Assembly (NCBI GenBank): GCA_951406725.2
Contig: OX597838.1
Location: forward strand, 27,776,001 to 27,840,000
Direction: 5' to 3'
DNA: 64,000 nucleotides
Source: Octopus vulgaris
Lineage: Eukaryota
Below, one piece after another: positions 60,678 through 61,067 of the stretch. The position numbers and the translations under genes are program-made. Below the pieces are notes generated by a model. It saw only the letters and a program-made list of their open reading frames with translations. It was not told the origin of the DNA and did no database searches. The first letter of the stretch is position 1, and each line of letters begins with the position of its first letter.

Positions 60678-61067
60678 ATAGTTATCACCAAGCTAATATG
60701 GCAGTCCATAAATATAGGACGAAAGCTGCCATTGATTAGCTCCAAGAGGCCATCGCCTCTAGCTGTGTGACACATGAACCTGTGTCCATTATAACCTTCG
60801 AACAGGTTTGGGTACTCTGCATTGATAAAGGGCAAATACCCTGAAACATGTCTGCAGATGCCTGACCAGCAAGGGAAAGCGGCTGACCTCCCCTGTGTGA
60901 AGGTAATAATGGACACAGGTTTGTGTGTCATATAGCTAGCTAGAGGCAATGACCTCTTGGAGTTAATCAACGGCAGCTTTCGTCCTATATTTGTGGACTG
61001 CCATGTTAGCTTGCCGATAACTATTAATATCCAGTACCACTGCCGTAGTCTCCTTTAGAGAAACATA
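60678..61067. mobile_element. Fold-back non-autonomous element (~120-bp arms) in (TA)n
   Basis: 60678-60799 is inverted at about 60899-61025. Confidence 0.75.
60816..60858 (+). ncRNA. Minimal type-I hammerhead ribozyme, U3-A8 core variant
   Basis: UCUGCA-UUGAUAA-AGGGcaaauaCCCU-GAAA-CAUG-UC-UGCAGA. Confidence 0.72.

What the first reader, a model, noticed from the sequence alone, without database searches (positions are those of the whole stretch)
60678..61067. Non-coding rod-like element presenting a U3-A8 hammerhead in its loop
Seen: a ~390-bp element with no credible ORF whose ~120-bp arms enclose a ~100-nt loop. The loop holds a cleanly paired 43-nt hammerhead (6-bp helix I, 4-bp helix II, ACAUGU palindrome, GUC). 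Unlike the other elements, the ribozyme is single-copy and not sequestered in the stem. Inference: a retrozyme-like element that could yield a highly base-paired, possibly circular RNA.
Basis: partly seen in the sequence, partly recalled or inferred. Interest (0 to 1): 0.72.

Follow-up and report, generated by a model that had tools for sequence, protein, structure and literature searches.

The report
Truncated retrozyme copy with Penelope-style inversion
The hairpin is one short, decayed copy of a very abundant repeat that carries a predicted self-cutting RNA motif; its rod shape is likely a by-product of how a Penelope-type jumping-gene enzyme pasted two partial copies back to back, so it is likely an ordinary member of a known kind rather than a new rod-shaped circular RNA.

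Summary
Observation confirmed. There are 131/135-bp inverted arms (120 of 135 positions Watson-Crick) around an 85-nt loop holding a 43-nt type I hammerhead with a U3-A8 core (0 of 5000 shuffles), all inside (TA)n. The reading 'rod-like circular RNA' is not supported. Contigs of public runs show a high-copy family whose native sequence upstream of the ribozyme differs from the left arm, and whose inverted junctions fall at different places in different copies. The locus is a 257-bp sense piece, an inverted shorter copy of its 3' part, and a 31-35-bp tail at one end. That is the published Penelope-like (PLE) insertion signature; a coding PLE at 57641-58547 shows it too. The ribozyme is conserved in the family (helix III swaps between two palindromes). 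One contig gives a unit of at most 360 nt, probably 357, so the family is probably a non-LTR retrozyme. This copy is shorter than one unit and has one dimer-type ribozyme, so it would not release a circle. U3-A8 is published. This scan noted the same kind of element many times on other DNA of this genome. Cleavage and circles are untested.

The parts
60576..60675 (.). (TA)n microsatellite, left flank (target site; the TA-rich tract goes back to about 60285)
60676..60806 (-). Left arm: inverted, 5'-truncated second copy of 60892-61026, with a private 4-nt deletion near 60758
   Evidence: insertion row and loose ends at 60758/60764
60805..60806 (.). Head-to-head junction; two G letters fit both the inverted arm and the sense piece (microhomology, inferred)
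   Evidence: arm alignment ends at 60806; family contigs carry other sequence before 60805 (table 7)
60805..61061 (+). Sense piece of the family unit (257 bp of a unit of about 357 nt), 5'-truncated just upstream of the ribozyme
60805..60867 (+). Extended helix I (60805-60814 with 60859-60867), with GUAC at 60812-60815 just 5' of the 6-bp helix, as in internal loop 1 of the Schistosoma mansoni hammerhead
   Evidence: fold; PMC2632901 passages
60816..60858 (+). Type I hammerhead: 6-bp helix I, core U3-U4-G5-A6-U7-A8-A9 (60822-60828), 4-bp helix II with CAAAUA loop, GAA, palindromic helix III (60846-60851), predicted cut 60852/60853
   Evidence: family variation
60892..61026 (+). Right arm: the part of the sense piece that is mirrored; it ends at the family's common short 3' end (61026-61030)
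   Evidence: loose ends behind 61029/61030
61027..61061 (+). Tail, 31-35 bp, present on this side only; family contigs run on beyond 61061
61062..61100 (.). 7 unassigned letters, then TA-rich right flank
57641..58547 (-). Internal control, not part of the element: 5'-truncated coding PLE (linker and GIY-YIG end) with its own U3-A8 type I hammerhead (core from 57801, C17 at 57776) and a 143-bp inverted copy of its 3' end, also beside (TA)n

Best explanation
This is a decayed, shorter-than-unit insertion of a high-copy repeat family with a conserved U3-A8 hammerhead, likely a ~357-nt non-coding retrozyme, and its rod was likely made at insertion, when a Penelope-type reverse transcriptase/endonuclease would have copied two partial strands from two fixed start points into a cut (TA)n tract and joined them head to head. 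Steps: (1) tandem copies elsewhere are transcribed, and pairs of ribozymes pair through the palindromic helix III and cut out unit-length RNA, which may be circularised (inferred from the palindrome covariation and from retrozyme literature; untested). (2) A PLE protein nicks both strands of a TA tract and primes on the RNA at two sites about 31-35 nt or more apart (inferred from the two 3' ends and from PAc in vitro data). (3) One cDNA stops after ~131 nt, the other after ~257 nt, just past the ribozyme, and they join over a 2-nt match (the geometry is shown, the chemistry inferred). (4) The arms then decay neutrally (15 differences shown). This copy would be a dead end: one ribozyme, no second cut.
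For: High copy: 2830, 4491 and 3908 contigs laid in runs X1, X2, X5. Native upstream sequence is not the left arm: 28, 19 and 25 contigs have loose ends before 60805 (median 49-59 letters) that lie on nothing in the stretch, and 0 of the 32 long pieces shown cross 60805 (11,540 not shown). Junctions vary: 9 of 15 joints shown (59 hidden) and 2 of 4 are inverted junctions, all at different places, each in 1-2 contigs per run at single-copy depth. A shared short 3' end followed by TA-rich flank (22, 30, 28 contigs behind 61030), and a longer form past 61061 (69, 79, 75 contigs). Inverted truncated copy, 30-40-bp tail and (TA)n bias are described for PLEs (PMC8557442 passages); two internal RT start sites and extension of both target strands were shown for PAc (PMC11167929). 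The same geometry and a U3-A8 hammerhead occur in a coding PLE 2 kb away. Helix III: 60848 A>T and 60849 T>A have near-equal depth in all 6 runs that show them, of 7 laid (e.g. X9 570.4/570.4, 29/29 contigs), keeping a palindrome. No listed change at 60822-28, 60843-47 or 60850-52 (40 of 78 rows shown, 40 of 48). A 387-nt contig of X10 goes back from 61029 to 60813: unit at most 360 nt, and 357 if it is a closed 31-mer cycle. Loops match the canonical Schistosoma contact, as in retrozymes rather than minimal PLE hammerheads (PMC4209133, PMC7229834).
Against: The unit length rests on one contig of one run, only 82% alike (30 other letters in 166), and the run's RNA status is a guess; the DNA run X9 showed no such joint. 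About 100 nt of the unit were not seen, so a link to a coding PLE cannot be excluded. No PLE sharing sequence with this family was found (tail against the window PLE's tail: 34% of shuffles score as well). The family's long end seems to lie beyond 61061, so this copy's tail may be clipped. In X10 most depth at 60842 (208 of 291, 2 contigs) carries a change that would break the first pair of helix II unless compensated. 8 of 9 Xenopus retrozyme dimers tested in the 2026 preprint did not cleave, so a good-looking motif need not be active.
Confidence: 0.66

Rival explanations
1. The locus is the 3' end (pseudo-LTR) of an autonomous, coding Penelope-like element, truncated just upstream of its hammerhead, with the usual inverted copy and tail; no separate non-coding unit is involved.
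For: Same geometry and a U3-A8 core in the coding PLE at 57641-58547. U3-A8 was first described in PLE hammerheads, mostly as single motifs from truncated PLEs (PMC4209133). Only 30 letters of native upstream sequence were seen.
Against: The contig that goes back with a period of at most 360 nt leaves no room for an ORF. The ribozyme has the canonical 6-bp/4-bp form with Schistosoma-type loops, not the minimal PLE form. No ORF with relatives downstream of or across the ribozyme.
Confidence: 0.25
2. One reading: the 390-bp rod is itself the mobile unit and is transcribed into a viroid-like, highly base-paired, possibly circular RNA with the ribozyme at the tip.
For: Very stable rod (z -23); ribozyme free to fold in the loop; G-U outnumbers A-C 8 to 4 on the ribozyme strand.
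Against: Junctions differ from copy to copy and the native upstream sequence is not the arm. 13 of 15 arm differences are private or minor-variant changes, 6 at CpG sites, and none is compensated; 8 to 4 is within chance for a 1:1 split. One ribozyme with a monomeric helix III probability of 0.0 cannot free both ends of a monomer.
Confidence: 0.04
3. A MITE or foldback DNA transposon with long terminal inverted repeats that inserts at TA and has captured a hammerhead.
For: Long inverted arms, TA flanks, no ORF, high copy.
Against: The ends are asymmetric (tail on one side), the inner boundaries vary among copies, many copies appear to be simple 5'-truncated pieces, and the ribozyme is part of the same unit as the arm sequence.
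Confidence: 0.03

Closest known systems
Metazoan non-LTR retrozymes (Cervera and de la Pena 2020, PMC7229834, parts 2-4 of 6 read; mussel 350-390 bp, axolotl 330/350 bp; Li et al. 2026, bioRxiv 10.64898/2026.07.22.740005, parts 1 and 3 of 5 and passages read)
   Same: Non-coding, high copy, G+C under 50%, canonical type I hammerhead with 6-bp helix I, 4-bp helix II and weak palindromic helix III (like axolotl HHR_Amex1, which works as a dimer); probable unit of about 357 nt; PLEs proposed as carrier.
   Different: U3-A8 core; this copy is shorter than a unit and inverted, not tandem. The passages read describe tandem, dimer and monomer copies, and in the preprint 'tail' occurs 0 times and 'inverted' once, in a reference title. 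Cleavage and circles not shown here.
Inverted, 5'-truncated insertions with tail of endonuclease-bearing Penelope-like elements (Craig et al. 2021, PMC8557442, passages; Frangieh et al. 2024, PMC11167929, parts 1-2 of 4)
   Same: Inverted truncated copy next to the 5' end, 30-40-bp extension at one end, (TA)n target, hammerhead near the 3' end.
   Different: No RT or GIY-YIG sequence in this copy and no sequence match to a coding PLE found; cargo probably non-autonomous.
U3-A8 hammerheads of Schistosoma Cercyon PLEs (Cervera and de la Pena 2014, PMC4209133, parts 1-2 of 4)
   Same: Same compensatory core pair (about 1,300 hits there, mostly single motifs).
   Different: Those are minimal motifs (the S. 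mansoni families have a long helix II, short helix I and a bulge after A9); this one is canonical, with the loop contacts of the S. mansoni full-length ribozyme (PMC2632901, passages).

Membership tests
Type I hammerhead ribozyme | Core boxes with a 3-8 Watson-Crick pair, GAA, A15.1-U16.1, H17, helices I and II | tested here: met
   U3-A8 instead of C3-G8 (published variant); no Rfam hammerhead hit
Type I hammerhead ribozyme | Conservation and covariation across copies | tested here: met
   palindrome-keeping double change at 60848/60849; no listed core change, with 38 and 8 rows hidden
Type I hammerhead ribozyme | Self-cleavage at C17 | not testable with these tools
   only contigs were available; they show no RNA ends (table 6 empty)
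Metazoan non-LTR retrozyme | Short (150-450 bp) head-to-tail unit with one type I hammerhead | tested here: inconclusive
   Family: one contig with period of at most 360 nt. This copy alone does not meet it (shorter than a unit, no direct repeat), so it is filed as a fragment and the family's membership is provisional
Metazoan non-LTR retrozyme | No protein-coding capacity | tested here: inconclusive
   met for the 257 bp seen; about 100 nt of the unit not seen
Metazoan non-LTR retrozyme | Many genomic copies, G+C under 50% | tested here: met
   G+C 45%
Metazoan non-LTR retrozyme | Accumulates as linear and circular unit-length RNA | not testable with these tools
   no run on record as RNA; a contig cycle fits either a circle or a tandem array
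Metazoan non-LTR retrozyme | Target site duplication longer than 4 bp, when present | tested here: inconclusive
   flanks are (TA)n, so a duplication cannot be read
PLE-type insertion (works like) | Inverted 5'-truncated copy adjoining the 5' end, with variable breakpoints | tested here: met
PLE-type insertion (works like) | 30-40-bp tail at one end only | tested here: met
   61027/61031-61061; the family's long end may lie further
PLE-type insertion (works like) | (TA)n target | tested here: met
   TA-rich loose ends behind 61030
Autonomous Penelope-like element | ORF with RT and GIY-YIG endonuclease | tested here: not met
   absent from this copy; not excluded for unseen longer copies
MITE / foldback DNA transposon | Two fixed symmetric termini and a constant structure among copies | tested here: not met
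   one-sided tail, variable junctions

The most novel reading that the evidence does not exclude
A ~357-nt circular RNA with a canonical but U3-A8 hammerhead that cuts only as a dimer is reverse-transcribed in trans by a dimeric Penelope-type enzyme, which primes two separate RNA molecules on the two strands of one (TA)n break. This tiny copy would be the minimal footprint: both halves end at fixed start sites, and they differ at two sites that are polymorphic in the family, as if from two templates. That would name the long-suspected carrier of animal retrozymes and explain the PLE inversion-plus-tail structure in one mechanism.
Probability: 0.35. Interest if true: 0.6.

Novelty: new member of a known kind. 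Interest (0 to 1): 0.27.

Why it matters
By itself the locus is a dead fragment. The family matters modestly. Retrozyme mobilisation by PLEs is proposed in print from co-occurrence and pLTR kinship, and here a probably non-coding hammerhead repeat carries the PLE insertion scar directly, with thousands of contigs to map start sites. It also offers a natural canonical hammerhead with a U3-A8 core and a covarying dimer palindrome for kinetic tests. It warns the scan that long hairpins in (TA)n in this genome are mostly insertion scars, not rod-shaped RNAs.

Tried and rejected
Rfam: nothing at gathering score in the window, and no hammerhead among 11 weak hits at the locus. Own genome: not held, so copies could not be read whole. 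Pattern scans for the ribozyme or the 3' end found 0 loci in metagenome contigs, viral contigs and bacterial/archaeal genomes. Native upstream and downstream motifs were not found in the window above chance. No RNA holder listed on record; runs guessed as RNA held 87, 66 and 6 contigs, several of them truncated copies inside unrelated sequence, which is not used as evidence of expression. Antisense open frame: no relatives at near or longer lengths. A-to-I editing or selection on the rod as the source of arm differences: 8 G-U against 4 A-C, and 6 of 15 differences at CpG, so neutral decay suffices. A GUCC-loop-GGAC-GAAA word in the arms (60706-60724) resembles helix II of a second, antisense hammerhead. 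It was rejected: no first core box, and about 83% of X9 depth has another letter at the matching site 60978. The sense piece alone is not unusually structured (z -1.1 against a crude pair shuffle). No tail similarity to the window's coding PLE. Look-ups of earlier findings by sequence found no look-alike, so identity with the 355-364-nt families noted by others is not established. Paper searches: 'retrozyme'+'octopus' gave 2 listed papers, neither on such a family by title or abstract start; 'hammerhead'+'U3-A8' gave only PMC4209133; 'retrozyme'+'Penelope'+'inverted' gave 7 listed, of which PMC11722881, PMC4918200, PMC7761336 and PMC6431247 were seen only as listings. Supplements were not read (preprint supplements are closed) and may show inverted retrozyme insertions or U3-A8 retrozymes.

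Full report
Context. The window is animal DNA full of (TA)n, (CA)n and retroelement fragments. Earlier notes of this scan call the genome octopus; I did not test that. No whole genome is held, so the family was studied through contigs of public runs laid on the locus.

60676-60806 is an inverted copy of 60892-61026: 120 of 135 aligned positions are Watson-Crick, with 8 G-U, 4 A-C, 3 other and one 4-nt gap. The fold has z -23. The 85-nt loop holds a type I hammerhead at 60816-60858: 6-bp helix I, core UUGAUAA (U3, A8), 4-bp helix II capped by CAAAUA, GAA, the palindrome ACAUGU and C17 at 60852. The descriptor hit 0 of 5000 shuffles of the element and 0 of 100 of the window. Helices I and II form with probability 0.85-1.0 inside the rod, while the monomeric helix III pair has probability 0.0 and the palindrome self-duplex is -4.6 kcal/mol, the dimer-type design described in PMC4209133. 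GUAC just 5' of helix I and the CAAAUA loop are the loop sequences given for the S. mansoni full-length ribozyme (PMC2632901 passages), so this is a canonical, not a minimal, motif. Rfam does not report it. The U3-A8 pair is published for Schistosoma PLE hammerheads.

The family. Runs X1, X2 and X5 laid 2830, 4491 and 3908 contigs. Summed depth in the bin 60834-60846 is 138,000-379,000, against 23-69 for single long contigs. The tool warns that this is no copy number; I infer only an order of a thousand copies or more. The ribozyme is conserved. Within 60816-60858 the listed changes are 60836 (loop 2), 60842, 60848, 60849 and 60858; none falls at 60822-28, 60843-47 or 60850-52 (40 of 78 rows shown, 40 of 48, so hidden rows may exist). 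60848 A>T and 60849 T>A have near-equal depth in each of the 6 runs that show them (of 7 laid; X9 570.4 and 570.4, 29 and 29 contigs), which turns one palindrome into another. Linkage is inferred from the equal counts. Against activity: most X10 depth at 60842 carries a change that would open the first pair of helix II unless compensated.

The rod is not the unit. Contigs reaching 60805 continue 5' into other sequence (28, 19 and 25 contigs, median 49-59 loose letters), and 0 of 32 long pieces shown cross 60805 (11,540 pieces not shown). By eye, that native upstream sequence can pair in short stretches with 60865-60899, extending helix I; this was not computed. Of 15 joints shown, 5 lead from the left arm to different points of the sense piece and 4 join two sense-piece positions on opposite strands. 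The other 6 are deletions or arm switches. In one search, 2 of 4 joints are inversions. Each lies in 1-2 contigs per run at single-copy depth and at its own position. So inversion is common in the family, and its breakpoint is copy-specific. The 3' side is fixed: many contigs stop at 61029-61030 and run into TA-rich flank (22, 30, 28), others pass 61061 with a shared continuation (69, 79, 75). A 69%-identical relative at 12990-13125 ends near the same short end. The two arms have decayed separately. Against (X9) frequencies, 9 differences are right-arm changes, 4 are left-arm changes and 2 (60931, 61005) fall on sites polymorphic in the family; 6 of the 15 are at CpG. Both arms share two minority letters (60978, 60989), which fits one subfamily. 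The two polymorphic-site differences are a weak hint of two templates.

This geometry is known. Craig et al. describe an inverted 5'-truncated copy next to the 5' end, a 30-40-bp tail at one end and (TA)n bias for PLEs (PMC8557442 passages; also PMC8969392 passage). Frangieh et al. show that a PLE protein cuts AT-rich DNA and extends both strands, starting at two internal RNA sites whose spacing equals the tail; the protein is predicted to be a dimer, and its hammerhead cut only with protein and was not needed for insertion in vitro (PMC11167929). The window has its own control. 57641-58547 (minus) holds a fragment whose relative P0002 has RT and GIY-YIG (the fragment itself hits GIY-YIG only weakly, E 0.0076), a U3-A8 type I hammerhead and a 143-bp inverted copy of its 3' end.

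Retrozyme or PLE end? One X10 contig of 387 nt covers 60813-60977 and, after a gap, 77 letters ending at 61029: a 'goes back' joint. The period is at most 360 nt. If the contig is a closed cycle of 31-mers (word size assumed from the tool text), the period is 357, its last letter maps to 60949 and 81 letters would be expected; losing the last 4 at the near-fixed family difference at 60952 gives the observed 77 (my inference). Loose ends of about 120 letters behind 61061 in X10 and X19 are compatible with a gap of about 100 nt back to the ribozyme. A cycle fits a tandem array or an RNA circle equally; the contig is 82% alike and alone, and the run's RNA status is a guess. That unit size, the canonical ribozyme, 45% G+C and the lack of coding signal fit metazoan non-LTR retrozymes, for which PLEs are the proposed carrier (PMC7229834; bioRxiv 10.64898/2026.07.22.740005). 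Earlier notes on this genome report 355-364-nt families of this kind with U3-A8 cores and two-armed insertions. They gave me the lead for the test and the two-start-point wording. They are unchecked, and look-ups by sequence did not tie them to this family.

Mechanism. Shown: geometry, target, fixed 3' end, variable junctions, conserved dimer-type ribozyme. Inferred: tandem source copies give unit RNAs by dimeric cleavage; a PLE enzyme primes on both strands of a TA break at two start sites; two truncated cDNAs (about 131 and 257 nt) join over two G letters; neutral decay follows. This copy has one ribozyme and less than one unit, so it would not release a circle. If read through, it would form a long duplex with, at best, weak or trans-dimer cleavage. 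Confidence 0.66; coding-PLE end 0.25; functional rod RNA 0.04; MITE 0.03.

Verdict. A real feature, and a new member of a known kind. The U3-A8 core and the inverted-plus-tail shape are each in print. I found no paper in the searches run that shows that shape on a retrozyme, but supplements and subscription papers were not seen, and this scan has already noted it repeatedly on younger, longer copies in this genome. Interest 0.27.

Noticed in passing
window 57641-58547 (-): 5'-truncated coding Penelope-like element (Cys-rich linker, GIY-YIG end) with a U3-A8 type I hammerhead that has a 7-bp helix I, only a 2-bp helix II and an ACCGGU palindrome, plus a 143-bp inverted copy and a probable ~40-bp tail at 58548-58590.
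   Followed up: partly
window 12990-13125 (+): Old relative (69%) of the right arm that ends near the same short 3' end; no hammerhead found upstream of it.
   Followed up: partly
window 33968-34319 and 12480-12650: Two related repeats with a CUGAUGA box; the first is a hairpin whose arm sequesters the box. My type I descriptors did not match them; they may be the rewired hammerheads that earlier notes describe.
   Followed up: no
window 15043-15449, 17907-18066, 38379-38629, 44622-44948, 56917-57033, 61153-61434, 13436-13704, 1542-2048, 40833-41711: Nine more long hairpins; several lie beside (TA)n or other simple repeats and may be inverted insertion scars of other families. 61287-61451 recurs at 62577-62741 (91%).
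   Followed up: no
window 48288-48917 (+) and 41083-41564: Transposase-like fragments of the Tc1/mariner type (judged by eye from translations; label recalled, not scanned).
   Followed up: no
window 61661-61730: 13-bp tandem unit (about 5 copies) inside a common interspersed repeat that also occurs inverted at 59209-59435.
   Followed up: no
window 60269-61054 (-): One antisense frame is stop-free across the whole element, and a 357-nt unit would be a multiple of three; no protein relative found, probably chance.
   Followed up: partly
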